Shown here: positions 19,303-52,900 of the stretch, one piece after another
Numbering within the stretch: position 1 is the first letter of the stretch
How the letters are laid out: every line of letters begins with the position of its first letter
IMG/VR virus record: IMGVR_UViG_3300030060_002342
Span: 4,416-68,415 of that record
DNA length: 64,000 bases
Origin: a virus
Strand: one strand, 5' to 3'
Position numbers and translations under genes: made by a program
Notes under the pieces: generated by a model
The model's database searches: none
Seen by the model: the letters and a program-made list of their open reading frames with translations, nothing else
What the model was told of the DNA's origin: nothing

Positions 19303-19559
19303 TCTACTAAAACTACATCCTGCATCTTAATTACTTTATATATATTGTTGTCATAAGATATATTATGCCCACAATGTCCATCGTAATATATAGTAGATTT
19401 ATTTGATATGCCTTCTACCATATTACCAACAGAGACTACTTTAGCTTTTTTGTATCTAGCTTCGTCTTTTGTTAGTTTTGCTGTAAGATCTAGACCTGCA
19501 ATCTTAGCAGGTTTCTCTTTTATGTCTTTTACTATTATATAATAACTAATTGCTCTCAT
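19299..19559 (-). CDS. groES: Co-chaperonin GroES-like
   Basis: 86 aa directly after GroEL; KAKVVSVGN and VIKMQDVVLVE. Confidence 0.8.
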   Translation of the reverse strand: MRAISYYIIVKDIKEKPAKIAGLDLTAKLTKDEARYKKAKVVSVGNMVEGISNKSTIYYDGHCGHNISYDNNIYKVIKMQDVVLVE

Positions 19560-21105
19560 TTGTTCTCATATTAGATATTACACAATCAGCTGATATAATA
19601 GTAGAAGCAACACTTGCAGCATTTTTTAAAGCTGTTTTTGTTACTAATACTGGATCTATGATACCTTTATCAACCATTTTAGTTAATTCGCCAGTAATAA
19701 CATCAATACCATAGCCTTCATCTTCAATTATATCAATTTTTTTGATACCTGCATTAGAAACTATGGTTTGATATGGTGAAACTATTGCTTTTGCCACAAT
19801 TTTTTCACCTACTTTGTCCATATCGAGTAATTTTACCGCATTTACTAGTGCTACACCACCTCCAGGAACAATTCCTTCTTGTAAAGCAGCTTTTGTAGCG
19901 TAAATTGCGTCTTCTACTCTTGCTTTTTTCTCGTTTAGTGCTACTTTTGAGTTTGCACCTACCTTAATTACGCCGACAGAGCCTGTTAACATAGCTAATC
20001 TGTCTTGTAATTTATCTTTTACGAAAGGGTTTTTCTCTTTTTTTGCTATTTTCTTAACTTCCGCAACTCTTTCATTTAAATTTGCTGGCTTCACGCCAGT
20101 TGTAAGGACTGTAGTTCTGTTATCAGTTACAGATTTGACCACTTCGCCTAAACAATCTGGCTGGATCAGATCTAAATCATCACCAAGTTCTTCATTCATT
20201 ACCTTTGCGCCAGTTAATATTGCTAAGTCCTCAATTGTGTCCATTCTTGTTGGACCAAAACCAGGAGTATCAATAATATTTACTTTGATATTACCTTTAA
20301 TTTTGTTCATTAACAGAGCAGATTTAACTTGTTGATCAACATCTGCTACTATAAGAAGGCTTCTACCCTTCTTTATAACATGTTCTAGTATTGCTTGTAT
20401 CTTTCTTATGCTAGTTATAGTTGAACTAACAACTAAAACATAAGGATTTTCTAGTGTACATGTTTGTCTATCTTTATCGGTTATCCAGTGAGGTGATGTT
20501 AACTTACAGTCTAGCTTTATACCATCTGTAATATCAGCATAAGTTGTTTCATCTTCTGAGTCTTCCATCAAAACTATACCGTCTTGACCAACTTTTTTAT
20601 AAGCTTCTGCTATTATGCTGCCAAGTTCTTTATCATTGTTACATGAAATAGATGCAACACTTTCAAGCATTTTACCTTTAACTGGTATTGATATTGAATT
20701 AAGATAAGTACATATTTTATTAATTGCACTTTCTATACCATTTTTAATATCTCTTGTAGACTTATTTTCTTTAAGAGCATTAATTAACAGCGAGTGAGCA
20801 AGGACGGTAGCTGTTGTAGTACCATCACCTGCTTCGCTTACTGTCTTTTTAGCAGCTTCTTTAATTAGATGTGCACCTAAGTTTTCTACAGGATCGTACA
20901 ATACAACTGATTCAGCAACGGTAACACCGTCTTTAGTTATAATTGGTCGACCTCTGTCATCTTCATATATTACACACTTACCAGAAGCGCCTAATGTAGA
21001 TGCTACAGCATTTGCTAGCTTAGTAACACCACTCATTATTTTGTTTTTACCATCTTTGCCAAAGTTTAAATCCTTGACAATAAGGCTAGGGGGATTATAT
21101 TCCAT
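19546..21105 (-). CDS. groEL: Chaperonin GroEL-like
   Basis: ITKDGVTVA, AGDGTTTATVLA, EGIVPGGG, GIIDPVLVTKTALKNAASVA; no GGM tail. Confidence 0.95.
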   Translation of the reverse strand: MEYNPPSLIVKDLNFGKDGKNKIMSGVTKLANAVASTLGASGKCVIYEDDRGRPIITKDGVTVAESVVLYDPVENLGAHLIKEAAKKTVSEAGDGTTTATVLAHSLLINALKENKSTRDIKNGIESAINKICTYLNSISIPVKGKMLESVASISCNNDKELGSIIAEAYKKVGQDGIVLMEDSEDETTYADITDGIKLDCKLTSPHWITDKDRQTCTLENPYVLVVSSTITSIRKIQAILEHVIKKGRSLLIVADVDQQVKSALLMNKIKGNIKVNIIDTPGFGPTRMDTIEDLAILTGAKVMNEELGDDLDLIQPDCLGEVVKSVTDNRTTVLTTGVKPANLNERVAEVKKIAKKEKNPFVKDKLQDRLAMLTGSVGVIKVGANSKVALNEKKARVEDAIYATKAALQEGIVPGGGVALVNAVKLLDMDKVGEKIVAKAIVSPYQTIVSNAGIKKIDIIEDEGYGIDVITGELTKMVDKGIIDPVLVTKTALKNAASVASTIISADCVISNMRTNESN

Positions 21106-21747: not shown

Positions 21748-21857
21748 TAAAAAAAGTTGTTAGATATAATGGGGTATAGCGCCGCCCCTCTCCTCCCTGC
21801 ACCACACCGTAAAAGCAAAGTTAAAATTATTTACCGGGCCCCACCCTGTTTTTATAT

Positions 21858-21888
21858 TATTATCCATGTTTGTCAGTGTTTACTCTGT
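21858..21888 (-). promoter_or_regulatory. Class I (early) promoter-like motif, divergent copy
   Basis: Reverse complement ACAGAGTAAACACTGACAAACATGGATAATA matches the 31-bp layout. Confidence 0.45.
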
Positions 21889-21939
21889 ATTTTCCTGCTC
21901 ACCATTTAATAACTAATATATTTTTTGTTCTAAATTTTC

Positions 21940-21970
21940 ACAATGTTACTACTATATATAATGGATAGTA
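21940..21970 (+). promoter_or_regulatory. Class I promoter-like motif
   Basis: ACAATGTTACTACTATATATAATGGATAGTA. Confidence 0.5.
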
Positions 21971-22068
21971 ATAATGTAAGTAAATTAAATAAATAACTTA
22001 GACAATATGAGACAGTGCGGAATACTACTAACAATAAATGAAACACTAAACAAAGTATCTACTTTTAT

Positions 22069-22099
22069 ACAATGTAAATACTAACTCAATTGGATAATA
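22069..22099 (+). promoter_or_regulatory. Class I promoter-like motif
   Basis: ACAATGTAAATACTAACTCAATTGGATAATA. Confidence 0.7.
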
Positions 22100-22138
22100 A
22101 TAATGTAACTAAATAATAATAATTAAATATAATAAACT

Positions 22139-22366
22139 ATGAGTAACTTAATCACAAAAAGATTTGTCGTAAGACAATCACTAGTCGGAAAAAATGTAAC
22201 ATTCGAATTCACTAACAAAAAAGGTGACAAGATAACTTACAATCATGACAAAGTATTTTCAATAATGAAAGATACACTAACTAAACTTCCATGTTGGTTA
22301 AAGTACAAAAGTTATACTGCTACTAACAATATACCTTTAGTACTTAGAGATAAAGACTTAGTGTAA
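22139..22366 (+). CDS. Early hypothetical protein
   Basis: First plus-strand ORF, 75 aa, after the promoter motif. Confidence 0.75.
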   Translation: MSNLITKRFVVRQSLVGKNVTFEFTNKKGDKITYNHDKVFSIMKDTLTKLPCWLKYKSYTATNNIPLVLRDKDLV

Positions 22367-22429
22367 CAACTAAGCTTTATTTCAACTGCGAGTTCCACTT
22401 GTTTCTAACAGTAAATTGCGAATGAGTAA

Positions 22430-22472
22430 TGTCATTATGGTACACGAGTGTGTTCGATTCACACTATGACAA
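22430..22472 (+). ncRNA. tRNA-like minihelix (acceptor-like stem plus T-arm)
   Basis: TGTCAT/ATGACA stem, TATGGTACACG linker, AGTGTG-TTCGATT-CACACT T-arm; intergenic. Confidence 0.5.
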
Positions 22473-22493
22473 CTAACAATTAATATTATAACT

Positions 22494-22688
22494 ATGAATA
22501 AAATCAAATTGACGTACAATAAAGTGTACAATTATGCGAAAGGTAAACCAGTAGCAGAACTAATAGCAGAAGTAATAGCTTTCGGTTTCTTACTACCACT
22601 AGTAATAGTAGGTTTAACTACAATCATATTTGCTTTGCTAACAGGTGAAATCAATACTAACAATATAACATTTGGAATTTATGGATAA
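22494..22688 (+). CDS. Small membrane protein
   Basis: 64 aa with one long hydrophobic helix. Confidence 0.65.
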   Translation: MNKIKLTYNKVYNYAKGKPVAELIAEVIAFGFLLPLVIVGLTTIIFALLTGEINTNNITFGIYG

Positions 22689-22784
22689 GAAGCAAATGAT
22701 AATAGAAATAATGTTTGTAGCGTGTTTATTCGCGCTACTATATGTATCACTATGGATATTCTGTCCATGCTAAACTATAATAAT

Positions 22785-22922
22785 ATGGCAAGAAAACACA
22801 CACATGAGAAACTATGGTCGTTTAGTGACGAACACGTAGTTGATGGTATGATTTACTCACATGAATTAGACAAGTGGGTAACTGTTGAAGAATACACAGA
22901 AGTATACTATGGAACTTTATAG
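22785..22922 (+). CDS. Small hypothetical protein
   Basis: MARKHTHEK start preferred within the 22722 ORF. Confidence 0.5.
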   Translation: MARKHTHEKLWSFSDEHVVDGMIYSHELDKWVTVEEYTEVYYGTL

Positions 22923-22925
22923 TAT

Positions 22926-22956
22926 ACAATATAAATACGAACTGAGTTGGATAATA
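22926..22956 (+). promoter_or_regulatory. Class I promoter-like motif
   Basis: ACAATATAAATACGAACTGAGTTGGATAATA. Confidence 0.75.
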
Positions 22957-22970
22957 ATATAAATTAAAAT

Positions 22971-23156
22971 ATGAATAAACTTAAATTTACAAACTATAAT
23001 GCACTGGGTCAACCACAAAATGTTATACTAAAGTATGCAAATGGCGATGTCGAAGTACTCGAATTTGCTCCAAATACTAGATACTATGACAGTTTTGACA
23101 AGAAATACAGAAGTTACCCATCATTTACTACTATAAAAACTAGAACTTATGCCTAA
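22971..23156 (+). CDS. Early hypothetical protein
   Basis: 61-aa ORF after the promoter motif. Confidence 0.65.
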   Translation: MNKLKFTNYNALGQPQNVILKYANGDVEVLEFAPNTRYYDSFDKKYRSYPSFTTIKTRTYA

Positions 23157-23388
23157 ATACTTTGATGATTTAACATTAGAACAAATGTTCGAGTATCATG
23201 ACCATACTTATATGATGGCAGATGACAATCGAGCGTACGAAAATGGCAGACGCCAACGTGATTTGATAGAAGATAAAGTCAAAGCACAAGGCGGATGGAC
23301 TAAAGAATTAGTAGATTTGTATAATAAATATGCACCAAGTGGTATGTTTCAAAAAGATTACGACTTCATGCAAAAATATAATAAATAA
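23149..23388 (+). CDS. Early hypothetical protein
   Basis: 79 aa; HDHTYMMADD motif. Confidence 0.7.
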   Translation: MPKYFDDLTLEQMFEYHDHTYMMADDNRAYENGRRQRDLIEDKVKAQGGWTKELVDLYNKYAPSGMFQKDYDFMQKYNK

Positions 23389-23393
23389 TAACT

Positions 23394-23876
23394 ATGAGAA
23401 TACTAGAAAACGGCGAGTATAAATATACTTGGCAACAAGAACAGCAAATGCTTGAAGATGCTTATGCAAGACAATTGCTACTTAAATACAATATTAAAGA
23501 AGTAACTACACAAAAACAAGCAATAAATGGTACAAGAGAATTTGAGTTTCCTGTATCTACTTATAATAATACTAATGAATTTTATAAGAAATGGCTAAAA
23601 AAGCAGGGTAGATCACTAAAAGATACACCAAGATTAAGATTAGCTTGCTTTAAATCTGGCTATGTAAGAAAACAAAATGGTACTTATTCACCATATCAGT
23701 TAAATAAAACTTACAAACAAGAGCAAAGAACTACTTTTTTAATAGATGGTAAGCTAGAAACTAGAAAGTATAGAGGAATAGCTAGAGCTAAAATATGGTC
23801 AGGTCTTGCTAGATTAAACTATATGTTAGAATACTATTTAAGAAATTACAAACAAAATACGAATAAAGTTGGATAA
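23394..23876 (+). CDS. Early hypothetical protein
   Basis: 160-aa basic ORF. Confidence 0.7.
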   Translation: MRILENGEYKYTWQQEQQMLEDAYARQLLLKYNIKEVTTQKQAINGTREFEFPVSTYNNTNEFYKKWLKKQGRSLKDTPRLRLACFKSGYVRKQNGTYSPYQLNKTYKQEQRTTFLIDGKLETRKYRGIARAKIWSGLARLNYMLEYYLRNYKQNTNKVG

Positions 23877-23878
23877 TA
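23848..23878 (+). promoter_or_regulatory. Class I promoter-like motif
   Basis: ACAAACAAAATACGAATAAAGTTGGATAATA. Confidence 0.7.
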
Positions 23879-23885
23879 TATTTGT

Positions 23886-24098
23886 ATGACGAAATGTAAA
23901 TGTAAAAATATAATACCTCCGCAGCGCCTCGCACTAGGTTATACCTCTTGCGTCGACTGTTCAACCACTGAACCTTATGGTTGTGTTCAAATCACGTACC
24001 ATAAAACCGGCAATACTATTCAAATTATGCCAAAAAGTCAGGCGAAACGTGTAAGGAAGCTTGGCGCTAGACGAGGTTATGGCACATGTTTAAGATAA
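23886..24098 (+). CDS. DksA/TraR-type C4 zinc-finger protein
   Basis: CKCKNIIPPQRLALGYTSCVDC matches the C..C..I...RL.....C..C pattern. Confidence 0.65.
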   Translation: MTKCKCKNIIPPQRLALGYTSCVDCSTTEPYGCVQITYHKTGNTIQIMPKSQAKRVRKLGARRGYGTCLR

Positions 24099-24102
24099 TA
24101 AT

Positions 24103-24321
24103 ATGGCACTAATAAAACAAATGAATATTGTAGCAGAAGAAATAGCTACAGATATAATAAAACAAATAGACAAACAAAGTGATTGGCAAGTCGGTCAGTT
24201 TCTACCAGAAGATGCTGAGTCCCCACTTACAAACGACACTCATAGTTATCTTATGAGACTGGTCGCTCGCCACATCGCTAATAAACTAGACGTAACAACT
24301 AATAAATACTACGATGAGTGA
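24103..24321 (+). CDS. Hypothetical protein
   Basis: 72-aa ORF in the operon. Confidence 0.65.
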   Translation: MALIKQMNIVAEEIATDIIKQIDKQSDWQVGQFLPEDAESPLTNDTHSYLMRLVARHIANKLDVTTNKYYDE

Positions 24322-24598
24322 TTCAGTAAAAAAATATTTTGAAGATAAAGAAGAAACTTGTAACTACAGCGGGCTAAGAAGTACAAGCAGCTACACAGCT
24401 AAGTACATATTCTTACTAGATTTTACAGACGGTAAGGTATATAGATATGACATTAGCTCGTTATGTAATGATGAAAACAAATGGAATCCTGACTCAGAGT
24501 CTTGTGAAGCGTTTTTATACGGCGCAGGTCACAAAGTAAATGACTGTGAGTGGATGGTTACAAGTGATAAAGATATAACTCTCGGGAATACACAGTAG
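24314..24598 (+). CDS. Hypothetical protein
   Basis: 94-aa ORF in the operon. Confidence 0.65.
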   Translation: MSDSVKKYFEDKEETCNYSGLRSTSSYTAKYIFLLDFTDGKVYRYDISSLCNDENKWNPDSESCEAFLYGAGHKVNDCEWMVTSDKDITLGNTQ

Positions 24599-24624
24599 GC
24601 CTTGTGATGAAAACAAGAGAGTAT

Positions 24625-24698
24625 GGGCGTGTAATGGTTGGCGGCAACCTCGGCGTAAGCAAAGGTGCCAGACGCAGGTTCGAATCCTGCCACGTCCA
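24625..24698 (+). ncRNA. tmRNA tRNA-like-domain (TLD)-only RNA / tRNA-Ala mimic
   Basis: Acceptor GGGCGTG/CACGTCC with G3-U70 and A73; no D-stem; helix GGCAACCT/AGGTGCC; AGAC linker; T-arm GCAGG-TTCGAAT-CCTGC; no anticodon arm. Confidence 0.7.
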
Positions 24699-24702
24699 CA
24701 AT

Positions 24703-24733
24703 ACAATATAAATACGACAATAGTCGGATAATA
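24703..24733 (+). promoter_or_regulatory. Class I promoter-like motif
   Basis: ACAATATAAATACGACAATAGTCGGATAATA. Confidence 0.75.
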
Positions 24734-24761
24734 TATATACAAACAATTAAATATAATAACA

Positions 24762-25004
24762 ATGGGTAAACTTAAAACACTTTACGACTTAATGCAACCT
24801 AGTCTTAAAACAGAGTTGCAAGCTAGTGCTAGAAAGTATGACAGCGCTAAAAGACTAAAGTATAAACTCATGAGTTCTACATTATGGCACGAGCTATCAT
24901 TATCTGATATTAGTGACCTAATGTCTTACTCAGGTCTTTATACAAGCGATGTAACAGCTAAAGATATAATCTATGGCGATAAATTCTTAACAAACAAATA
25001 CTAA
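24762..25004 (+). CDS. Hypothetical protein
   Basis: 80-aa ORF after the promoter motif. Confidence 0.7.
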   Translation: MGKLKTLYDLMQPSLKTELQASARKYDSAKRLKYKLMSSTLWHELSLSDISDLMSYSGLYTSDVTAKDIIYGDKFLTNKY

Positions 25005-25459
25005 TGGCAGAATTACTAACAGATGATATTATCACCGATGCGCTAAGCAACGATGGTATCATGGAAGAACCAGATGCTAACTGGCTCCTTGAATATATCG
25101 AATCAGAATACGGCGGCAAACTAGACAATACTACCACATGGTCTGACAGTAAAGGTTTAAAAATATACAGTGAATCAACAGCTGACAGCTATGATATATA
25201 TTTCTGTACTTATGAAGATAAACCTTATGTGTCACAAGATGGTTATTACTATGAAGATCACGCGACTTGGTCAGAACAAGCTATTGAAGCACTGTGTGAT
25301 AATCAAAATGTGTGGATAGAATCTCATATATGGGACGATATGGAATACGACTTTAACCACGAACTAGAACAATGGTGGCAAGATGTATACGAAGATAAGT
25401 TTAACGATAAAAAAGATGAGTTAATAGACTCAGGCGATTACTATGAAGAAAAACAATAA
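25004..25459 (+). CDS. Highly acidic protein (DNA-mimic candidate)
   Basis: 151 aa dominated by D/E, with many W/Y and no Arg. Confidence 0.6.
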   Translation: MAELLTDDIITDALSNDGIMEEPDANWLLEYIESEYGGKLDNTTTWSDSKGLKIYSESTADSYDIYFCTYEDKPYVSQDGYYYEDHATWSEQAIEALCDNQNVWIESHIWDDMEYDFNHELEQWWQDVYEDKFNDKKDELIDSGDYYEEKQ

Positions 25460-28353: not shown

Positions 28354-28624
28354 TGATACACCTTATATAACTGCCTCAGGCATGTATATAAACCCTGATT
28401 GTCCTCAGTGCCACAGATGGATAGCTGTATCAAGAGATCTTGAAGAGCTTGGTTTTGTTTTTGGTGCTGAAGTAAGAGTTTCAGGTACAGGTTACCTAGA
28501 TGGTATATGGACTGTACAAGACAGAATGAACTCAAGATGGACAAACCGCATTGATTTCTTGGTAAACCAAGATATTTCAGGTGGTAAATGGGAAAACATC
28601 AAAATAGAATTATTGTCATACTGA
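28283..28624 (+). CDS. 3D-domain (MltA-like) peptidoglycan-active protein
   Basis: TATIY..QTDDTPYITASG, IAVSRDL, VQDRM..RIDF. Confidence 0.75.
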   Translation: MIVDLFKIILVTATIYHAEPQQTDDTPYITASGMYINPDCPQCHRWIAVSRDLEELGFVFGAEVRVSGTGYLDGIWTVQDRMNSRWTNRIDFLVNQDISGGKWENIKIELLSY

Positions 28625-28665: not shown

Positions 28666-29294
28666 AAGATAGAAACTTAAAATGGTTAAATGATAGACGC
28701 ATCGTATATAGGAGAGATCCTATAAATGATGTGCCTACCATTGAAACCAAACAATATAAATACTACGAAAATGGTACACATGAATGTTATCACTTGTTTA
28801 ATAGCAAGGCTAAGATAACTACATATAAATCATTGAAGTGGCACATGCTTGTATTATATTACTTAAATATAGATGGCGTAGAAAATGATTATATATCTTT
28901 AGAAGATGATATGCGTTCTGTATTTAACTTTATAGCAAACAAAGAAAATGGTTTTGTAACCTTCTTCATAAAACAGAAAGTATTAAATGATATGATAGAA
29001 GATGTATTTAACCAAGGTGGTGATCCACCTGCAAACAAGCTACGTAAAGTAGTATTTAAACCGTACTCTGGGTTAGACTTGAGTGGTAAATTAAAAATTG
29101 TAGGCCAACTAATAGGCAGATCTAGCATTGATAAGTTTATGATATACGATGCTATGATTGAAATAAGCGATGCTTATAGAAAAATTACTATTAGCAGAAT
29201 AGCTAAGCTTTTAAGATGCTCTGCAAGAACAATACATCGCCATATGAGTGATGATTTAAAACGAGAAAAACGAATATTAAATGAAAAGTTATAA
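28659..29294 (+). CDS. HTH DNA-binding protein, possible replication initiator/regulator
   Basis: C-terminal ITISRIAKLLRCSARTIHRHM helix-turn-helix. Confidence 0.6.
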   Translation: MSQDRNLKWLNDRRIVYRRDPINDVPTIETKQYKYYENGTHECYHLFNSKAKITTYKSLKWHMLVLYYLNIDGVENDYISLEDDMRSVFNFIANKENGFVTFFIKQKVLNDMIEDVFNQGGDPPANKLRKVVFKPYSGLDLSGKLKIVGQLIGRSSIDKFMIYDAMIEISDAYRKITISRIAKLLRCSARTIHRHMSDDLKREKRILNEKL

Positions 29295-30048
29295 CATACA
29301 AAATTATATTCGGTGGAAAAAAGACATTGAATATAAAATTAGCAAGTTACCAAAAATAGTAGACAATGATTATACTGTTTGGAACAGAGAGCAGATGATT
29401 ATTGGTTTTACTCCTCTTGTAGAAAATTTATCAAGGAAGTTCTCAACTAGCCAACAAGCTAGCGGAGTAATGGATATACTAGATTTAATACAAGAAGGTA
29501 ATTCAGGTTTAGTTAAAGCTGTAGATAGGTTAGACTATACTACACTTTCTGACTCTGACGATCAAGAAAAAACTTTAAAATCATTTTTATCTAAAAGAAT
29601 AAAAGGCCACATACGTAGAGCTGTAGATATTAATCGTGGTGACATGAGAATACCTGAACACAAGCTAAATGAAATACGTAGGAACTTTGGTAAAGATAAA
29701 AAGATGGTTGAAATGTTTTTTAATTCTATATTTTTAAGTATAGATGATAAACCTAAAGATGACGAAAATATGGTTTATCAAATACCTGATAAATCAGAAC
29801 CTTATAATATGAATTTACTAAATATATATTTAAAAGGTTTGATGAGAAAATACCTCAATGAAAAAGAATACGAGGTACTTAGGTTAAGCTATGGCTTGGA
29901 CTGTGATAAACACCCTGCGAAGCAAATTGCTGACATATTAAAGATTGAAGGCACTAGCTCTTATGTACGTGTTTCACAACTAAAAAGGCAAGCTGTAGAA
30001 AAACTTATAGAGAATGTCGATCACTCGCAAGTGCTTGATTATCTTTAA
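29281..30048 (+). CDS. Sigma-70 family RNA polymerase sigma factor
   Basis: Region 2 DLIQEGNSGLVKAVDRLD, MRIPEH, and region 4 LNEKEYEVLRLSYGL...VRVSQLKRQAVEKL. Confidence 0.9.
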   Translation: MKSYNIQNYIRWKKDIEYKISKLPKIVDNDYTVWNREQMIIGFTPLVENLSRKFSTSQQASGVMDILDLIQEGNSGLVKAVDRLDYTTLSDSDDQEKTLKSFLSKRIKGHIRRAVDINRGDMRIPEHKLNEIRRNFGKDKKMVEMFFNSIFLSIDDKPKDDENMVYQIPDKSEPYNMNLLNIYLKGLMRKYLNEKEYEVLRLSYGLDCDKHPAKQIADILKIEGTSSYVRVSQLKRQAVEKLIENVDHSQVLDYL

Positions 30049-46940: not shown

Positions 46941-46952
46941 AATTATTACTCG
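46941..46952 (-). promoter_or_regulatory. Class II promoter-like motif CGAGTAATAATT
   Basis: Upstream of the OMP/lysis operon. Confidence 0.4.
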
Positions 46953-49900
46953 TTTTCTCTCTTTTTTAATCTTTCAATTTCGTTTCTTATAAATTCGTTT
47001 CTTTCTTTTATTGAAAGACTTTTGTAATAGTTGTATACGTTGTCAGGCATTCTTTCTTCTATAATCTTCTTCTGTGCGTTAAATGTACTTACAGTCTCTT
47101 TTCTTTTCTTAATACCCTCTTGTTTTCTTCTTTCTTTTGCTTGATCTTTTATTAAGTCATGCTCAGGGAAAGGTTCAACACCTACATCCCAGCTACTCCA
47201 GCCCATAGCCATAGCAACTCTTTGCCATGCTCTATGTCTTGAATCTAATGCAGCGTATGTATTTGTTAATATGTTAACAGCTCTTTGCATAGGTATATTT
47301 GTTGTACCTTCAACCATACTACCTATAACACTGTATATAGGTGAATCTAAATTAAATCCTCTTGCAGCAATAACATCTTTTTCATATGTCATTGTTTTAT
47401 GTGATGAGTACATCTTTCTTATTTTAGAGCCTAATGGTGGAGATAAGTTAATAGCTTCAATTATAGTATACGCATGATCAGTACCCCAAGATTTATCTTC
47501 TTGCTTTTTGTAAGTCATTAATATATTTTTAACTGTAGATACAACAGCACCAGGTAAACCAGATCCTCTTAATATAGTATCTGTCATGTTGTTTATAACT
47601 CTAACCTTTTTACCCATAATTCTATTTGCTTCTCTTTCTTCATCTTCTTCTTCATCACCGTGCATTCCTGGTAGTAAAGCAAATAAAGCATTTTGCATAG
47701 CTGTAAATATAAAGTTTTGTACAGCTCCATAATATATTATTTTACTAATATGTGTTTTAGGATCACCTCTTCTGTTAATTAAATCTCTTGCAGCTTTTTT
47801 CATTAACCTGTTATACTGGAAAGGTGTATTCTGCCAAGCAAATAAAAATCTACCCATTGGACTAGCTTGTATTGCTGATATTAAAGATGGATCAGATGAT
47901 TGCTGTGTTTCTTCAGATATTTTAGAAAAGTCTTCAAATGCTCTTTTAGTAGCATCTTCTTGTGTATAACCTTCTTTAATATATTTATTTACTCTATTAC
48001 GATACATTGATGCACCACCTAATGATATTGCTAAACTATCAACTATTCTTGTCGGTGTAAAACCTATTGATAATAGTTTGTTAATAACACCTTTCACACC
48101 ACCTTTTTTAGCTGCAGCTGCCATTTCAGCTTCTTGTACGTTTATTTCTAAACCACCTCTTCTTTGTTTTAATTTAGGTGAATTAAATATCATACTAAAG
48201 TCTTTCCAAAACTGAGGTTGATTAGCAAATGCTTTAGCAGCAGCTAGTGGATTGTTATCTGACCAGTTTAAAAAGTTAACTGTAGATAAAGACTGTAATG
48301 TTGCTGATCTAAAGTTAAAGAACATAGTAGCACCAACAGAAGCATTGATCCAGTCTTGAAACTCATTCATTAATCTATTGCTACCAAAGTTTCTATTTCT
48401 ACCAGACTTCATTCTAAATAAAGAATCTTCTATAGCATCTCTTATAGGTTTACCATATAAAGCTTCTATTTTATTTAAATTATCTTTATCAAATATTATG
48501 TCAGCGTTCATTTCAAACTGAGCTAAATATTGTTTTCTACCTATCTTACCTGTTATAGCTTGTAAATCTGTAAGTATAGTTTCTGCTACCCAGCTATTAC
48601 CAGGCTCTACATAATTACTTGTTTTAACTATAGGTATTATGCTTTCCGCAAACAACTGTAAGTTAGGATTATTTTCCATAACTTTATTTACAGCTGCTAA
48701 ATCTCTAGCTGCTATTCCTGGTATCTTATGACCAGCTTTGTTCCATAAATATATTCTTACAGCTTGTTCATGTGTTAATACACTACCTGGTATTTCTTTG
48801 TTTAATATTTCTTTAACGTCAGGGTATAATTTCTTTAACGCTCTATAGTCTTCTGTTATTTTTTGTTTAGCTACGTTCATAGCATCTATACCTCTTTGAT
48901 ATGGTTTCATTAAGTTATCATTAAACCATTGCATATCAAGATCACCTTGCTTGCCTTTACCTAAAAAGTTATACATAAGACCCATAAAGTCCTCTGCACT
49001 TGGTGGTAAATAAAAAGTAAACTGACCTGTTTGTGCGCCTTTTATTCTAGCAACAGCATCTGAATATCTAGCTTCCGATACAACACCTTTATCTCTTTGT
49101 ATCATATCGTTAAAGTCTTTAGACATTTTATCTACTTTACTAAACATTACTTGTTGCACATCAGACTTCACGTCTACAACATCTAAAACTGTTTTAACAG
49201 CATTAACATTACCTAGCGCATCATCAGCAAATAAAAAGTCATTATAACCTTCAGCTGCTTTTCTTACTATAAAATCTGCTTTAGCTAATGGGCTACCGTC
49301 TTCTAAACCTGTTATGTTTTCTAACGGTATGTTTAAGCCTACACTCTTTAAAAACTTTTGTATTGCAGGTGCAGCAGCCGCTGGTCTAGCAGTTAGTATA
49401 AACATGTCTTTGCTACCAAACTTCTTTTGTAACTCTAGTGCTCTTTTTAAGAAAGGTCCAGGTTTACCGTCTTTAACATCATTGAACTCGTTAAAATCAA
49501 ACTTAGCACCTTGTTCTTCTAGTATGCCAGCGTCTGTAGCAAATTTAGCTGGTGTTATTTTAGTTACTTTACCATCAGGCATTGTAACTATAATTTTAGA
49601 ATCACTAGTAGCAAGTGTATCATCAAAGTCTAAAACACTAATACCTTTTCTTGTTTTTGATTTTTTCTTAGCTAACTCTAAAGCTTTATCAACTAAGTTT
49701 AACTTATCTATTATCTCTTGCTGTGATAAGTTTTTGCTATACATCACACCTGTATCTTGTAATGCTTTTAAATTATTTTTTTGTGCAGCTTCAAAAGCTT
49801 TTTTATTTTTTACTATTTCAGGACCTACTACTTTACCTGTTGAAAGTTGTTTTAGTTTTACGTTAAACTTGCCTATTGTAAATGGGTTATAATATCTCAA

Positions 49901-52900
49901 CAAGGACATTTGCGTACCATCCCACCATGATGGCATAAAATCTTTATAAAACTTATTAATAGTTGTATGTGCTTTAGTAGATATTAAAGCTGTTCTATAT
50001 CCTGCTAGCTTGTTTTTAAAATCAGTTTGATTTAAATTACCAGTTACATACTCAAATAAAGCTAAACCAATTTCTTTAGCTGGTGTCATGTGCTCAAGAT
50101 CTATTTTACCATCAACTAAATCTTCTTGTACAAAATCCATTATAGCTGAAGTTCTTAGTAAAGAGCCAGGATTATTATTCATTGTTTGTATTAGTGTAGC
50201 TACTTGCGACGACGATATTAATTTCTTACCGTGCATGTCTTTTAGTATATCAGCAAACTTACCTAAAAATTTATTGTCTTGCCTTGACTGCTCAACCATT
50301 ATATTAAGATCAGCTTCTGTAGGCATCTTTTTGTTTTTTAATTGATAAACCTTACTGTTTAAAGTACCTTGATCAGCTCCATCTTTTTTACTATGTAAAT
50401 CTATAAAAGCATTTAGATCTGCTTTATTATTAAACAAACCATATCTATTTGTATTTTTTTTATCAGCTTTATAATTTGGGTTGTCCATTATAGCTGTGCT
50501 ACCAGGTGATACAGGTATAAACCTACCGTCACCAATTTTTGATGCTATAGACATACCACCAAAATATCTTTTAAACTCTGCTTTAGTTATACGGCCTTCG
50601 CTTAACATAGTTGCCAACACTGATCTACCACTTTCTACAGAAGATTTGTTATTAAACAAAGCTGTTCCTGTTAAACCACCATAACCATTTATACCATTAA
50701 ACGACATTGGTGAGCTAGGATCTTGATTAGCTACTTGTTTTATTTCTTGTTTAAATAACTCTGTTGCTGATAAGTTTAACGCAGATACAGCCGGTGTAAA
50801 TGTATTATACTTTTGCCATATTTCATTTATATCTTTTACAATATCTCTTACCTGAGCTTTATTTAAAGCAAACTCAGCTAAGTGGCCAGGTAATGTAGCT
50901 TCTAATTCATTTTGATCATTAGGTGAAATGTTTAATGAAGCTAGCTTATTTACTATATCCATAGCTAGCTGAGAATTAGTTTTACCAATTTTTCTTATGG
51001 TTTTACTAAACATAACATCTGACTTACCATCAGACACAAACTTAAGAGCATCTACTGATCTACCGTCTAACAACTGTTGATCTCTTACAGCTTGATTAGT
51101 TAACATCTTACCAGTCTGCATTACTAGTGCTTTTATTCTAGCACTAACATTAGTTTCTTTTTTATATAAGTTAGTACCATCTTCTATAATACCAAAGTAC
51201 TCTAAGAAATCTTTTTTATAAGCTTTATAAGGTTCAGTCTCTACTTTTTGTTGTACTATCTCTCCGTTTTCGTTTGTAACTTGTTGTATTGTAAATTGTT
51301 CTGGAACAGGATTTTTAATTTGCTCAGTTAAATTAGCAGCACTACCTGTTTTAGCATACTTTACTTTATCACCTTTAGTATAAAACTTATCTAATAAAAC
51401 CTTTTGAACGCCTGTTGAAGTACCACTTGTAGTAGTACCATCAGGTAACATTTGTATTAATACATCTACATTTTCTTGTATAAACTCTTGAGCGTTTGTT
51501 ATATCACCTCTAGTTAAGTTACCAGGTTTTGGTTTAATACCAAACATCTCTTGTGTTTGATTAGGCGTAGCATCTGTTAATGATTTAAAGTCTTTACCTT
51601 TTATATCTATATTTAATTCTTTTACAGCTGCATCTATTGTTTTAGCTAAATCAGATGTCAATTCATCTTTTAGTCTTATCTTAACTCTACTAGATAGGTT
51701 TAAGTTAGATACTTTACTTTTGTTTTCGTTAGGTGTAAAGTTATTATTATCTAGTATGTTATCTATTTCACCTGGTGTAAAATCACCTAAGCTAACTTTA
51801 AAGTCTAGACCAACACCATACTTTTTTCGTATACCATCTATTTTTTGTTCTATCTGACCGTTTATCCAAGCACTTATAGGTTTACCTTCACTTGGGTTCC
51901 ATCTTCTTATTATATCTACTATACCTCTAGCACCTTTAACATCACCATATGCAATATCAGCAACCATATCATCTATGTATTTACTGTAGTCTGAAAACTT
52001 AGAATACTTTTTAAATCTTCTTCTTATTTCGTTTTCCCAACCAAAGCCAGCTTCTTGAGCTTTACTAATATCAAAACCATCCCAAGAAAAATTACCATCA
52101 GCATCTTTTGTTATACCTAGTAATCTTTCTGTTTGATCAAACAATTGTTCGTTACCCATAGAAAAGTCAACACCATCTTTCTTTTGCATTTCCTGTACTG
52201 CAGCTGTAGCTTGTGCCATTTTAACCTCACCTCTCATAACTCTAGAAGCAGCACCAGATATTTCACCAGCGTCAAAACCACTAGCAAAACTATGTAACAT
52301 GTCAAATACATCTTTACCAGTTTTTATTTCATTAAACTGATCTGTATCTTTAGTTGTATCTTGCCACCAGTCTAAGGCACCTTTAAGCATAGTTTGATCT
52401 GCTTTTAAATCATACTTTCTCATAAAGTCTATAGCTCTAGCTAATTTTTCCTCAGCTCTTTTAGCTTCGTTCATTTCTTTATAAGCTGGATCATCTTGTA
52501 CAACTTCAAATAAACCTTTATATCTACCTCTTAAATAACTGTCTAACATATTAGCCATAGATACTAAATCACCACCTTGCTCTACTATTGATCTAAACAA
52601 TGTTTGATGGCTAAGCTCATGTGAAAATACACTAGCATTACCTAAACCACCACCTCTTTCAGACATAGTTAAATCTTGAAAAGTAAAGTTTTGATTACCT
52701 TCGCTTATAGAAAAACCATGAATATCATGGCCCTGAGCTTTAGCATCTACTATTACTTTAGCAACTCTTCTCTTTAATCTGTTTTTTTGCTCAGGTGTTA
52801 AGCTAGAAGCTTCTATCTTGTCATTTGCATCTTTTAACAAGTTATCAACACCTCTACCTTTTACAACATTTATATTTTTACCAGTTAATACAGCGTCTTT

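What the first reader, a model, noticed from the sequence alone, without database searches (positions are those of the whole stretch)
24625..24698. Minimal tmRNA mimic: tRNA-like domain with the mRNA domain replaced by a tiny hairpin
Seen: a 7-bp acceptor with G1-C72, G2-C71, G3-U70 and A73; an unpaired TAATGGTTGGC loop in place of a D-stem; a bulged helix closed by GC-GTAA-GC (GNRA); an AGAC linker; and a canonical T-arm. Established: G3-U70 with A73 is the AlaRS identity. A stemless D-loop and a GAC before the T-arm are hallmarks of the tmRNA TLD bound by SmpB. Inference: an alanylatable RNA with no tag ORF could sequester SmpB/EF-Tu to block trans-translation, rescue ribosomes without degradation tagging, or decoy tRNA-targeting defences. 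tRNA and tmRNA scanners would probably miss it or call it a pseudo-tRNA.
Basis: partly seen in the sequence, partly recalled or inferred. Interest (0 to 1): 0.85.

Follow-up and report, generated by a model that had tools for sequence, protein, structure and literature searches.

The report
Phage tag-less mini-tmRNA gene
This marine phage carries a real 74-base gene for only the alanine-accepting, tRNA-like end of the bacterial ribosome-rescue RNA (tmRNA), a kind known from one mycobacteriophage, and it probably interferes with the host's rescue-and-tagging system.

Summary
Window 24625-24698 (+) has a 7-bp acceptor stem with G3:U70 and A73, a stemless 11-nt D-loop, a bulged GUAA-capped hairpin, an AGAC linker and a canonical T-arm. 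It is not chance: a covariance model built without it scores it 61.2 bits (E about 9e-14) against 10.4 for the next site in the window.

It belongs to a family of at least 87 distinct RNAs of 65-185 nt on related uncultured phage contigs. The tRNA-like ends are nearly invariant. The closing helix covaries at 5 of 5 pairs and the apical insert is hypervariable. In a sample not selected on RNA sequence, G3:U70 is kept in 32 of 33 and A73 in 33 of 33.

Rfam's tmRNA model is the best clan match for 10 of 12 relatives and tRNA for none. No convincing tag frame exists in any mini. The family model also finds the published TLD-only tmRNA of mycobacteriophage DS6A.

Verdict: a new member, and a large new lineage, of a known kind. 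The likely role is a tmRNA competitor or SmpB sponge. Charging, SmpB binding and expression are untested. This scan has reported the same kind on other phage DNA.

The parts
24625..24698 (+). The whole RNA gene: a 74-nt TLD-only (tag-less) mini-tmRNA
   Evidence: Sequence. Rfam tRNA 31.0 bits and tmRNA 30.3 bits. Family model R1 65.3 bits. Leave-out model R2 61.2 bits.
24625..24631 (+). Acceptor stem, 5' strand GGGCGTG (G3 at 24627)
   Evidence: Pairs with 24691-24697. Across 26 aligned relatives the acceptor cells are 100% paired, and pair 4:69 shows four pair types while G3:U70 is kept in 25 of 26.
24632..24642 (+). Stemless D-loop analogue TAATGGTTGGC with the conserved GG (24636-24637)
   Evidence: G12 and G13 are invariant in alignment A2. 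A GG lies in the 5' loop of 85 of 87 family members.
24643..24669 (+). Closing helix (P2/H2 analogue) with a bulged A and an apical GC-GTAA-GC GNRA hairpin, standing where the whole mRNA-like domain would be
   Evidence: Fold. In the family the closing helix has changes on both sides at 5 of 5 pairs. L109 carries the compensatory GACA/TGTC in place of GGCA/TGCC.
24670..24673 (+). Linker AGAC before the T-arm
   Evidence: Sequence. The three bases before the T-arm are GAC in 6 of 87 members and AAC in 69 of 87.
24674..24690 (+). T-arm GCAGG-TTCGAAT-CCTGC
   Evidence: Cells are 100% paired, and 3 of 5 pairs have changes on both sides.
24691..24698 (+). Acceptor stem, 3' strand CACGTCC (U70 at 24694), plus discriminator A73 (24698)
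   Evidence: A73 is present in 33 of 33 distinct strong hits of the sample not selected on RNA sequence.
24699..24701 (+). 3' trailer CAA; the CCA end is not encoded
   Evidence: Sequence. The trailer is CTA in 76 of 87 members and CAA in 7 of 87. DS6A has CTA.
24314..24598 (+). Upstream co-oriented small ORF (94 aa, no family match); its stop lies 26 nt before the RNA
   Evidence: Its homologues were used to find relatives.
24762..25004 (+). Downstream co-oriented small ORF (80 aa, no family match)
   Evidence: A homologue is the nearest identifiable downstream gene for 40 of 86 family members.

Best explanation
The element is a genuine phage RNA gene: a TLD-only (tag-less, CDS-less) mini-tmRNA.

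Shown here:
- A conserved, covarying structure made of a 7-bp acceptor stem with the alanine identity set G3:U70 plus A73, a stemless D-loop with a GG, one closing helix and a T-arm.
- No tag reading frame.
- A position inside a co-oriented block of small early-type genes.

Inferred:
- It is cut out of the polycistronic transcript by host RNase P and host 3'-end enzymes.
- It receives CCA from the host enzyme, because the gene ends in A-CAA.
- It is charged with alanine by host AlaRS and bound at its elbow by host SmpB.
- Having no resume codon and no stop codon, it cannot complete trans-translation. It therefore competes with the host tmRNA for SmpB, and possibly for AlaRS, EF-Tu and stalled ribosomes. 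That would dampen ssrA tagging and rescue during infection.
For: **A real gene**
- Leave-out model R2 scores the window element 61.2 bits, against 10.4 for the next site.
- There are 87 distinct members of 65-185 nt.
- The loci holding minis come from phages that share proteins with this one; 141 loci share at least one window protein, up to 30.
- The nearest mini, in L112, is 73 of 74 identical. The ORF homologues flanking it are only 39% and 48% identical to the window's.

**Structure**
- On a MAFFT alignment not fitted to the structure, 93.0% of cells pair, against 78.9% in shuffles.
- The covariation score is 0.348, against 0.091 in shuffles and at most 0.113 with partners slid.
- The closing helix covaries at 5 of 5 pairs.

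**Alanine identity is selected, not just pairing**
- Among loci found through neighbouring proteins, G3:U70 is kept in 32 of 33 distinct strong hits and A73 in 33 of 33. The adjacent pair 4:69 shows five pair types.
- The 47-nt elements in the same genomic context keep G:U in only 1 of 4.

**tmRNA kinship**
- Rfam's tmRNA model is the best clan match for 10 of 12 minis and tRNA for none.
- L016 and L009 pass the tmRNA gathering score, at 60.6 and 64.7 bits.
- R1 finds the DS6A TLD-only tmRNA at 28478-28557 with 39.5 bits.

**No tag**
- ARAGORN's tmRNA mode gave canonical-looking tags only for forms of 243 nt or more.
- Differences between L006 and L010 are compensatory in a hairpin rather than synonymous (my reading).

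**The phage depends on host factors**
- The phage has no SmpB, no CCA-adding enzyme family and no integrase.

**Literature (passages read)**
- The TLD has a reduced, stemless D-loop whose interaction with the T-loop is required for SmpB binding; SmpB binds the elbow; G3:U70 and A73 are the AlaRS keys (PMC3968760).
- A DS6A-like TLD molecule, chargeable or not, strongly inhibits tmRNA, perhaps by titrating SmpB (PMC4131195 and PMC11915505, both citing Mao et al. 2009).
- Peptidyl transfer to a TLD-only tmRNA has been observed in vitro (PMC3895274, citing Shimizu and Ueda 2006).
Against: - Nothing here shows transcription as a discrete RNA, CCA addition, charging or SmpB binding.
- The window's own tmRNA score (30.3 bits) is below the gathering score of 47 and about equal to its tRNA score of 31.0.
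- Most family members have AAC, not the tmRNA-typical GAC, before the T-arm (69 of 87).
- No promoter or terminator of its own was found. There are 0 terminator-like sites in 21800-25200, and promoter-like sites are not clearly enriched (26 against 18.8 +/- 5.0 in shuffles).
- In relatives the same slot can hold a 47-nt acceptor/T-arm element without alanine identity. The same phages also carry a second tRNA-like family with C3-G70. A shared role in RNA processing is therefore a live alternative.
- The 100 loci searched were collected with a pattern that fixes U70 and A73, so the 82 of 87 and 84 of 87 figures are biased. Only the 33-sequence sample is not.
- The host is not identified, and the benefit to the phage of blocking trans-translation is conjecture.
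Confidence: 0.55

Rival explanations
1. It is a working minimal rescue RNA. Ala-TLD with SmpB enters stalled ribosomes and accepts the nascent chain. The ribosome is then freed by drop-off or a backup factor without a degradation tag, as is proposed for the tag-less mitochondrial tmRNAs. This would recycle ribosomes for phage translation.
For: - It shares the structural evidence of the main reading: alanine identity kept in 32 of 33 and 33 of 33, and TLD features.
- Tag-less mitochondrial and plastid tmRNAs are conserved together with SmpB and are thought still to help with incomplete mRNAs (PMC11915505, passage read).
- Peptidyl transfer to a TLD-only tmRNA occurs in vitro (PMC3895274, passage read).
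Against: - No release mechanism is encoded: there is no stop codon and no phage rescue factor (no family matches among the 10 neighbouring ORFs).
- The one experimental report on a DS6A-like molecule describes inhibition, not rescue (PMC4131195 and PMC11915505, passages read).
Confidence: 0.15
2. It is mainly a tRNA-like processing or punctuation signal. It would direct RNase P and 3' tRNA-end enzymes to cut the polycistronic early transcript, or cap and stabilise mRNA ends. The alanine identity would be an inherited feature of little consequence.
For: - It lies between co-oriented small ORFs with no promoter or terminator of its own.
- It shares orientation with its identifiable neighbours in 150 of 151 flank comparisons.
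- The same slot holds a 47-nt acceptor/T-arm element in a relative (L040 against L041; record 10).
- Those 47-nt elements and a second tRNA-like family lack G3:U70.
Against: - RNase P and the 3'-end enzymes need no G:U at 3:70 and no A73. Yet these are kept in 32 of 33 and 33 of 33, while neighbouring pairs covary.
- The stemless GG loop and the closing helix in TLD geometry are conserved over 87 variants.
- Processing is also needed under the main reading, so the two are not exclusive.
Confidence: 0.18
3. It is a decayed tRNA-Ala gene, or a leftover piece of a host ssrA gene such as an attachment-site remnant, with no function.
For: - Rfam's tRNA model passes its threshold, at 31.0 bits against 29.
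- Bacterial tRNA-Ala genes with the identical GGGCGUG acceptor and T-arm exist.
- tmRNA genes are common integration sites (PMC11915505, abstract).
Against: - Eighty-seven distinct variants keep both halves paired, with compensatory changes.
- The RNA is near-identical between phages whose flanking proteins are under 50% identical.
- ARAGORN calls a tRNA or 'tRNA-???' on only 4 of 87 and a tmRNA with a non-canonical tag on 1 of 87.
- An attachment-site remnant would carry only the 3' part of the gene.
- No integrase is present in the genome.
Confidence: 0.03
4. It is a decoy or sponge for a host defence that recognises tRNA or tmRNA, or its hypervariable apical domain carries a separate, fast-evolving function such as a target of, or bait for, a host factor.
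For: - The apical insert ranges from about 10 to more than 100 nt and is rebuilt from shuffled modules between close relatives, while the TLD is frozen.
- GNRA-capped hairpins recur at the apex (my reading).
Against: - Known tRNA-targeting defence nucleases cut anticodon loops (recalled, not tested). This RNA has none.
- The variability fits equally well with an absence of constraint beyond forming a helix, as with the region enclosed by helix 2 of real tmRNAs.
Confidence: 0.07

Closest known systems
'TLD only' (CDS-less) tmRNA of Mycobacterium phage DS6A (JN698994 28478-28557; Hudson, Lau and Williams 2014, PMC4131195; Nawrocki, Petrov and Williams 2025, PMC11915505; Mao et al. 2009, not held)
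   Same: - Both are phage-encoded and 74-80 nt long.
- Both have a 7-bp acceptor with G3:U70 and A73, a stemless GG-containing D-loop, a single closing helix in place of the mRNA-like domain and a T-arm.
- Neither encodes CCA: the trailer is CTA in DS6A and in 76 of 87 family members, and CAA in the window.
- Both fall below Rfam's tmRNA gathering score, at 43.2 and 30.3 bits.
- The family model R1 finds the DS6A gene at 39.5 bits.
   Different: - No detectable primary-sequence kinship beyond the shared TLD consensus.
- A different acceptor stem: GGGGCCG in DS6A against GGGCGUG here.
- A different phage lineage and probable host: an actinobacteriophage against relatives of Cellulophaga, Tenacibaculum and Flavobacterium phages.
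- Here the RNA is one of a large family with a hypervariable apical domain and 47-nt alternatives at the same slot.
Tag-less tmRNAs of jakobid and other mitochondria (Rfam mt-tmRNA RF02544) and of Mallomonadaceae plastids (about 65 bp), as described in PMC11915505
   Same: They are reduced to the tRNA-like domain with no tag reading frame, and are conserved.
   Different: - They are organellar and vertically inherited, and work with a nucleus-encoded SmpB as the organelle's own system.
- The phage RNA sits beside a complete host tmRNA and would compete with it.
- I did not compare the sequences here.
Canonical one-piece bacterial and phage tmRNA (Rfam RF00023)
   Same: - The TLD architecture and the alanine identity.
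- Full-length tmRNA genes with the identical GGGCGUG acceptor and T-arm, and with canonical tags such as ANKNQFALAA, exist on other viral contigs.
- The same acceptor is found on second ssrA copies in bacterial genomes.
   Different: - No pseudoknots, no resume codon, no tag ORF and no stop codon.
- 74 nt against roughly 240-420 nt.
- The viral contigs with full-length forms are not relatives of this phage.
tRNA-Ala
   Same: Acceptor stem, G3:U70, A73 and T-arm. Some bacterial tRNA-Ala genes share these 3' 22 bases exactly.
   Different: No D-stem, no 5-bp anticodon stem with a 7-nt loop and no anticodon. ARAGORN does not call it.
tRNA-like processing elements (t-elements of plant mitochondria; mascRNA-type 3'-end modules)
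   Same: It is embedded in a longer transcript and has a tRNA-like acceptor/T-arm module that RNase P and tRNA 3'-end enzymes could recognise.
   Different: - Such elements need no aminoacylation identity, whereas here G3:U70 and A73 are conserved.
- The Rfam mascRNA-menRNA match is only 13.2 bits against a gathering score of 42.5.

Membership tests
tmRNA tRNA-like domain (TLD) | 7-bp acceptor stem formed by the 5' and 3' ends, with a G3:U70 wobble | tested here: met
   Sequence. G:U is kept in 25 of 26 sequences and in 32 of 33 distinct hits of the sample not selected on RNA sequence.
tmRNA tRNA-like domain (TLD) | Adenosine discriminator (A73) | tested here: met
   A at 24698; 33 of 33 in the unselected sample.
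tmRNA tRNA-like domain (TLD) | Reduced D-loop without a stem, with a GG that can meet the T-loop | tested here: met
   TAATGGTTGGC is unpaired in the fold. G12 and G13 are invariant in A2. The loop-loop contact itself is not testable here.
tmRNA tRNA-like domain (TLD) | Canonical T stem-loop (5 bp, 7-nt TTCRANY loop) | tested here: met
   GCAGG-TTCGAAT-CCTGC; 100% of cells paired, with 3 of 5 pairs covarying.
tmRNA tRNA-like domain (TLD) | Helix 2 leaving between the D-loop and the T-arm | tested here: met
   The closing helix has changes on both sides at 5 of 5 pairs. In the window it is GGCA/TGCC plus CCT/AGG.
tmRNA tRNA-like domain (TLD) | 3'-terminal CCA | not testable with these tools
   Not encoded; the trailer is CAA. 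It would have to be added after transcription. The phage has no PF01743 enzyme.
tmRNA tRNA-like domain (TLD) | Charged by AlaRS and bound by SmpB | not testable with these tools
The phage has no SmpB of its own.
Canonical tmRNA (Rfam RF00023) | Score at or above the curated gathering score (47 bits) | tested here: not met
   The window scores 30.3 bits. Relatives L016 (60.6) and L009 (64.7) pass. DS6A itself scores 43.2.
Canonical tmRNA (Rfam RF00023) | mRNA-like domain with a resume codon, a tag ORF and a stop codon | tested here: not met
   Only 27 nt lie between the D-loop and the linker. ARAGORN's tmRNA mode finds none in the window. Among minis its only call is a non-canonical tag, ERTEVYYIC, on one 185-nt member.
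TLD-only / CDS-less tmRNA (DS6A type) | Complete TLD plus a closing helix, with no tag frame, encoded by a phage | tested here: met
   See the rows above. Same architecture as DS6A, and cross-detection by R1 at 39.5 bits.
TLD-only / CDS-less tmRNA (DS6A type) | Inhibits host tmRNA function | not testable with these tools
   Known only from passages citing Mao et al. 2009 (PMC4131195, PMC11915505). That paper is not held.
tRNA (Rfam RF00005) | Cloverleaf with a D-arm and an anticodon arm bearing an anticodon | tested here: not met
   The Rfam score of 31.0 just passes the gathering score of 29, but only by skipping the D and anticodon arms. ARAGORN makes no call.

The most novel reading that the evidence does not exclude
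These flavophage-like marine phages run a modular set of tRNA-shaped early RNAs. It comprises the alanine-identity mini-tmRNA with a rapidly rebuilt apical domain, 47-nt acceptor/T-arm elements that can occupy the same slot, and a second C3-G70 tRNA-like family. The mini-tmRNA's frozen TLD would dock on SmpB or the ribosome, while its hypervariable apex carries a second, lineage-specific function such as bait or a target in an arms race with the host. That would make it more than a simple SmpB sponge.
Probability: 0.1. Interest if true: 0.75.

Novelty: new member of a known kind. Interest (0 to 1): 0.45.

Why it matters
In the papers I could search and read, only one phage TLD-only tmRNA (DS6A) is described (searches; passages).

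This window shows that the kind is not a curiosity.

Standard scanners miss the family or mislabel it. ARAGORN called 5 of 87, none of them as a canonical tmRNA. Rfam's curated tmRNA threshold was passed by 2 of the 34 mini-bearing neighbour-anchored loci.

If these RNAs do block or redirect trans-translation, phage interference with ribosome rescue would be a common infection strategy. The natural series of variants also offers a ready-made mutational map of what a TLD needs. The series runs from 185 nt down to 65 nt, with 47-nt relatives that have lost alanine identity.

Tried and rejected
- **Cultured phages.** blastn of 24000-25400 against GenBank phages found nothing. blastn of the element alone gave 617 records, but only T-arm-sized pieces; none covers 80% of the query. 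The family is therefore not seen in cultured phages at that sensitivity.
- **Sister phages with a full tmRNA at the same slot.** None found. The viral contigs with full-length tmRNAs share no window proteins, or in one case a single one.
- **Tag frames in the longer minis.** ARAGORN's tmRNA mode gave only one odd call, on the 185-nt mini in L052 (ERTEVYYIC). My own reading of the L006/L010 pair found compensatory rather than synonymous changes.
- **Expression.** All 24 listed runs hold only a small share of the stretch's words, 0.16 at most.
  - Laying four metatranscriptome assemblies gave one 110-nt contig in run X3 over 24592-24699, with 2 differences. It has higher contig depth than the flanking contigs (45.2 against 3-13.6).
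  - These are contigs, DNA carry-over is not excluded, and the contig ends coincide with points where strains diverge.
  - I do not count this as evidence of transcription or of RNA ends.
- **Host.**
  - The genome-collection scan gave mostly bacterial tRNA-Ala genes.
  - It also gave 7 minis among 83 stretches. They lie on contigs of metagenome bins of inconsistent taxonomy: Bacteroidetes, Aliivibrio and Ilumatobacteraceae.
  - Only the protein kinship to Cellulophaga, Tenacibaculum, Riemerella and Flavobacterium phages points to Flavobacteriia.
- **Partner proteins.** The ten neighbouring ORFs gave no Pfam match and one PHROG of unknown function.
- **Phage-encoded factors.** No phage SmpB, CCA-adding enzyme or integrase.
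- **Mao et al. 2009** is not held, so its content is known only through two citing papers. Supplements were not consulted.
- **Further copies.** The window has none.
Full report
**1. The observation**

The window is a 64-kb part of a 68,415-bp IMG/VR virus record that CheckV rates complete. Positions 24625-24698 (+) read GGGCGTG TAATGGTTGGC GGCAACCTCGGCGTAAGCAAAGGTGCC AGAC GCAGG TTCGAAT CCTGC CACGTCC A.

The ends form a 7-bp stem with G3:U70, followed by A73. No D-stem can be drawn. The middle is a bulged hairpin capped by GC-GTAA-GC. The T-arm is canonical. The minimum-free-energy fold gives the same picture: -31.9 kcal/mol, z = -2.74, and 2 of 200 shuffles fold at least as well.

The scanners disagree:
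- ARAGORN calls nothing in the window.
- Rfam's tRNA model just passes, at 31.0 bits against a gathering score of 29, by skipping the D and anticodon arms.
- Rfam's tmRNA model gives 30.3 bits, below its gathering score of 47. The match spans model positions 1-374, with 304 central positions replaced by 10 nt.

The element fills most of a 163-nt gap between two co-oriented small ORFs (24314-24598 and 24762-25004) in a run of small + strand genes. There are no terminator-like sites in 21800-25200 and no clear promoter next to the element.

**2. Relatives**

Homologues of the two flanking ORFs led to 45 loci on related viral contigs. A generic scan of those loci found the same kind of element in most of them. 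The scan asked only for a T-loop motif, a 5-bp T-stem and a 7-bp acceptor.

The shared layout is:
- a 5' end GGGCGTG-AAATGGTTAG;
- a closing helix of variable sequence;
- an apical insert of very variable length;
- a 3' end AACG-CAGG-TTCGAWT-CCTGC-CACGTCC-A;
- a trailer, most often CTA.

I built a covariance model, R1, from 26 diverse members including the window.
- It gave 46 matches in the 45 neighbour-anchored loci plus the window, 37 of them at 50 bits or more.
- It gave 98 matches in 100 pattern-derived loci, 80 of them at 50 bits or more.
- After removing duplicates and requiring an intact acceptor and T-arm, 87 distinct sequences of 65-185 nt remain.

The loci that hold minis come from phages sharing proteins with this one; 141 loci share at least one window protein, up to 30. 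The nearest identifiable upstream gene is a homologue of window ORF 23886-24098 in 54 of 86 members and of ORF 24314-24598 in 9 of 86. The nearest downstream gene is a homologue of ORF 24762-25004 in 40 of 86. The orientation matches the flanking genes in 150 of 151 comparisons.

The closest copy, in L112, differs at 1 of 74 positions. The ORF homologues flanking it are only 39% and 48% identical to the window's.

A second model, R2, was built without the window and without L109, the nearest subtype representative in the seed set. With filters off it scores the window element 61.2 bits (E about 9e-14), and nothing else in the window above 10.4 bits. The element is real and single-copy.

**3. 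Structure and selection**

On a MAFFT alignment that was not fitted to any structure (A2, 26 sequences), the proposed 17 pairs behave as follows.

| Measure | Observed | Control |
|---|---|---|
| Cells forming a standard pair | 93.0% | 78.9% in shuffles |
| Pairs with a change on both sides | 9 | 5.8 mean in shuffles |
| Covariation score | 0.348 | 0.091 in shuffles; at most 0.113 with partners slid |

The closing helix has changes on both sides at 5 of 5 pairs, with four or five pair types at four of them. The model-fitted alignment of the neighbour-anchored sample agrees, with 94.1% paired and 14 pairs changed on both sides, though such an alignment leans towards the model.

The key point is what does not vary. 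The neighbour-anchored sample was found through proteins, not through RNA sequence. In its 33 distinct strong hits, G3:U70 is kept in 32 (one A:U) and A73 in all 33. The adjacent pair 4:69 shows C-G, A-U, G-C, U-A and U-G. A helix under purely structural selection would not preserve a wobble pair in this way.

The pooled figures are 82 of 87 for G:U and 84 of 87 for A73. They are inflated, because one search pattern fixed those bases.

The 5' loop holds a GG in 85 of 87 members. The three bases before the T-arm are AAC in 69 of 87 and GAC in 6 of 87, including the window.

**4. What it is**

- Rfam's tmRNA model is the best clan match for 10 of 12 relatives' minis. tRNA is best for none, and 2 are unlisted at E 0.01 or better.
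- Two relatives pass the tmRNA gathering score: L016 at 60.6 bits and L009 at 64.7 bits.
- No mini has a credible tag. ARAGORN's tmRNA mode made 20 calls on the viral loci. Nineteen are on forms of 243 nt or more. The other is a 185-nt mini with the non-canonical tag ERTEVYYIC.
- On the 87 distinct members ARAGORN makes 5 calls in all: three odd tRNAs, one 'tRNA-???' and that one tmRNA.
- Between L006 and L010 the differences inside the insert are compensatory for a hairpin and non-synonymous in the open frame I read. This is my own reading.
- The window's apical hairpin recurs with a compensatory GACA/TGTC in L109. It also sits nested inside a longer outer helix in L026/L108. The window's form therefore looks like a deletion derivative of a longer one.

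I fetched the published 'TLD only' tmRNA of mycobacteriophage DS6A. It is 80 nt long, has G3:U70 and A73, a stemless GG loop, one closing helix, a T-arm and a CTA trailer, and scores 43.2 bits with Rfam's tmRNA model. R1, built only from the marine family, finds it at exactly 28478-28557 with 39.5 bits. The window element is therefore a member of the same kind.

**5. How it probably works**

Passages I read in the review PMC3968760 state the following:
- the TLD has a reduced, stemless D-loop;
- the D-loop's interaction with the T-loop is required for SmpB binding;
- SmpB binds the elbow and stands in for the anticodon arm;
- helix 2 mimics a long variable arm;
- RNase P makes the 5' end;
- G3:U70 with A73 is the AlaRS key.

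Each sequence-level item on that list is present here. The phage has no SmpB, no CCA-adding enzyme family and no integrase. Host enzymes would therefore have to release the RNA from the polycistronic transcript, add CCA to it, charge it and bind it.

Two passages bear on the consequence. PMC4131195 and PMC11915505 report, citing Mao et al. 2009, that a DS6A-like TLD molecule strongly inhibits tmRNA whether or not it can be charged, perhaps by titrating SmpB. PMC3895274 reports, citing Shimizu and Ueda 2006, that peptidyl transfer to a TLD-only tmRNA occurs in vitro.

My best reading is a competitor of host tmRNA that damps tagging and rescue during infection (0.55). All steps after 'conserved TLD-shaped gene with alanine identity' are inference.

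**6. Rivals**

*Tag-less rescue RNA (0.15).* This is the role proposed for mitochondrial tag-less tmRNAs (PMC11915505).

*Processing or punctuation signal (0.18).* Several observations favour it:
- the operon context;
- a relative (L040) that carries a 47-nt acceptor/T-arm element where L041 has a 78-nt mini;
- a metatranscriptome contig that joins the window's leader to such a 47-nt element;
- a second tRNA-like family with C3-G70 in the same phages.

However, the 47-nt elements keep G:U in only 1 of 4. That shows how the acceptor drifts in this setting when alanine identity is not needed. It makes the retention in the main family more telling.

*Pseudogene or attachment-site remnant (0.03).* This is contradicted by the covariation, by the presence of both halves of the gene and by the absence of an integrase.

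*Defence decoy, or a separate function of the apex (0.07).* The RNA has no anticodon loop to bait the defence nucleases I can recall.

**7. Host and origin**

The primase-helicase is closest to those of Cellulophaga phage phi10:1 (41.8% identity), Tenacibaculum, Riemerella and Flavobacterium phages. A Flavobacteriia host is likely but not shown.

Full-length tmRNA genes with the same GGGCGUG acceptor and T-arm occur on unrelated viral contigs. They also occur as second ssrA copies in three bacterial genomes, each of which also holds an ssrA copy with a GGGG-type acceptor. Two further bacterial genomes hold only a GGGG-type ssrA. This hints that the minis descend from a mobile-element tmRNA lineage. 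My search pattern selected for that acceptor, so it is only a lead.

**8. Expression**

All 24 listed runs hold only a small share of the stretch's words. One metatranscriptome assembly contains a 110-nt contig over 24592-24699 with two differences. These are contigs, DNA may be present in the library, and the contig ends coincide with points where strains diverge. I treat this as no evidence either way.

**9. Novelty**

The kind is in print for one phage, DS6A, and for organelles. My searches of the held library found no paper describing this marine family or a phage 'TLD-only', 'mini-tmRNA' or 'CDS-less tmRNA' beyond the Williams-group papers. No GenBank phage record holds the element.

Earlier reports of this scan describe the same kind on other phage DNA. 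None overlaps this sequence.

I rate it a new member, and a large new lineage, of a known kind, of moderate interest.

Noticed in passing
L040 2896-2942; L036 2891-2937; L045 2439-2485; L004 2036-2082: These are 47-nt 'super-mini' tRNA-like elements: a 7-bp acceptor, a conserved 15-nt loop (CTACGGTACTAAGGT or a near variant) and a T-arm, with no closing helix. The acceptors covary (GGGCGTG, GGACGTG, AGTGGTG, GAGCATG) and only 1 of 4 keeps G3:U70. L040 has one where the homologous locus L041 has a 78-nt mini. A metatranscriptome contig joins the window's leader (24592-24621) to such an element.
   Followed up: partly
L016 4236-4347; L027 3495-3583; L046 2163-2240: A second tRNA-like family has acceptor AACTAGG/TCTAGTT (C3-G70, so no alanine identity) and the motif ATCGACGGATAAAGAGG before the T-arm. 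It lies a few hundred bases upstream of the mini in one relative (L016) and 1.3-1.7 kb upstream in two others (L027, L046). It is absent from the window.
   Followed up: no
L003-L046 (for example L006 4117-4191, L009 316-390): Most related loci carry a canonical tRNA-Met (CAT) near the mini, in L009 only 7 nt downstream of it. The window has no canonical tRNA at all.
   Followed up: no
L325, L326, L327 (bacterial genomes G005, G003, G004): Three bacterial genomes each hold two ssrA copies, one with a GGGG-type acceptor and one with the GGGCGUG acceptor shared with the phage minis. The Balneola copy is only 308 nt and has a CTA trailer. The second copies may be borne on mobile elements.
   Followed up: partly
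Family-wide; DS6A L249 259-261; window 24699-24701: The three bases after the discriminator are CTA in 76 of 87 minis, in DS6A's TLD-only gene and after several of the phages' tRNA-Met genes; the window has CAA. C74 and A76 match CCA but position 75 does not. The reason is unexplained.
   Followed up: no
L090, L103, L104, L106, L107, L052 (apical inserts): The long apical inserts share shuffled modules, for example TACGGAAGTGTATTAC and GCCGACTATCGACGGATATAAGCGAG. This suggests that the inserts are rebuilt by recombination of small cassettes.
   Followed up: no
window 19546-21105 (-), 29281-30048 (+), 46946-55111 (-): The phage encodes a GroEL/Cpn60-family chaperonin (191.7 bits), a sigma-70-like protein (weak matches to regions 2 and 4) and a 2,721-aa ORF. 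It also encodes both ribonucleotide reductase subunits, an ATP-dependent DNA ligase and a primase-helicase.
   Followed up: no
KC821618 (Cellulophaga phage phi10:1) 31701-31755: An unannotated stretch between the annotated tRNA-Tyr and tRNA-Phe genes gives a weak R1 match (19.7 bits) and contains a T-arm. It may be a degenerate or unusual tRNA-like unit.
   Followed up: no
L174, L175, L194, L209, L210, L241, L243 (genome collection): Seven minis with CTA trailers lie on contigs of metagenome bins labelled Ilumatobacteraceae, Bacteroidetes (two bins) and Aliivibrio (four contigs of one bin). These are probably phage contigs swept into the bins, so the labels do not name the host.
   Followed up: no
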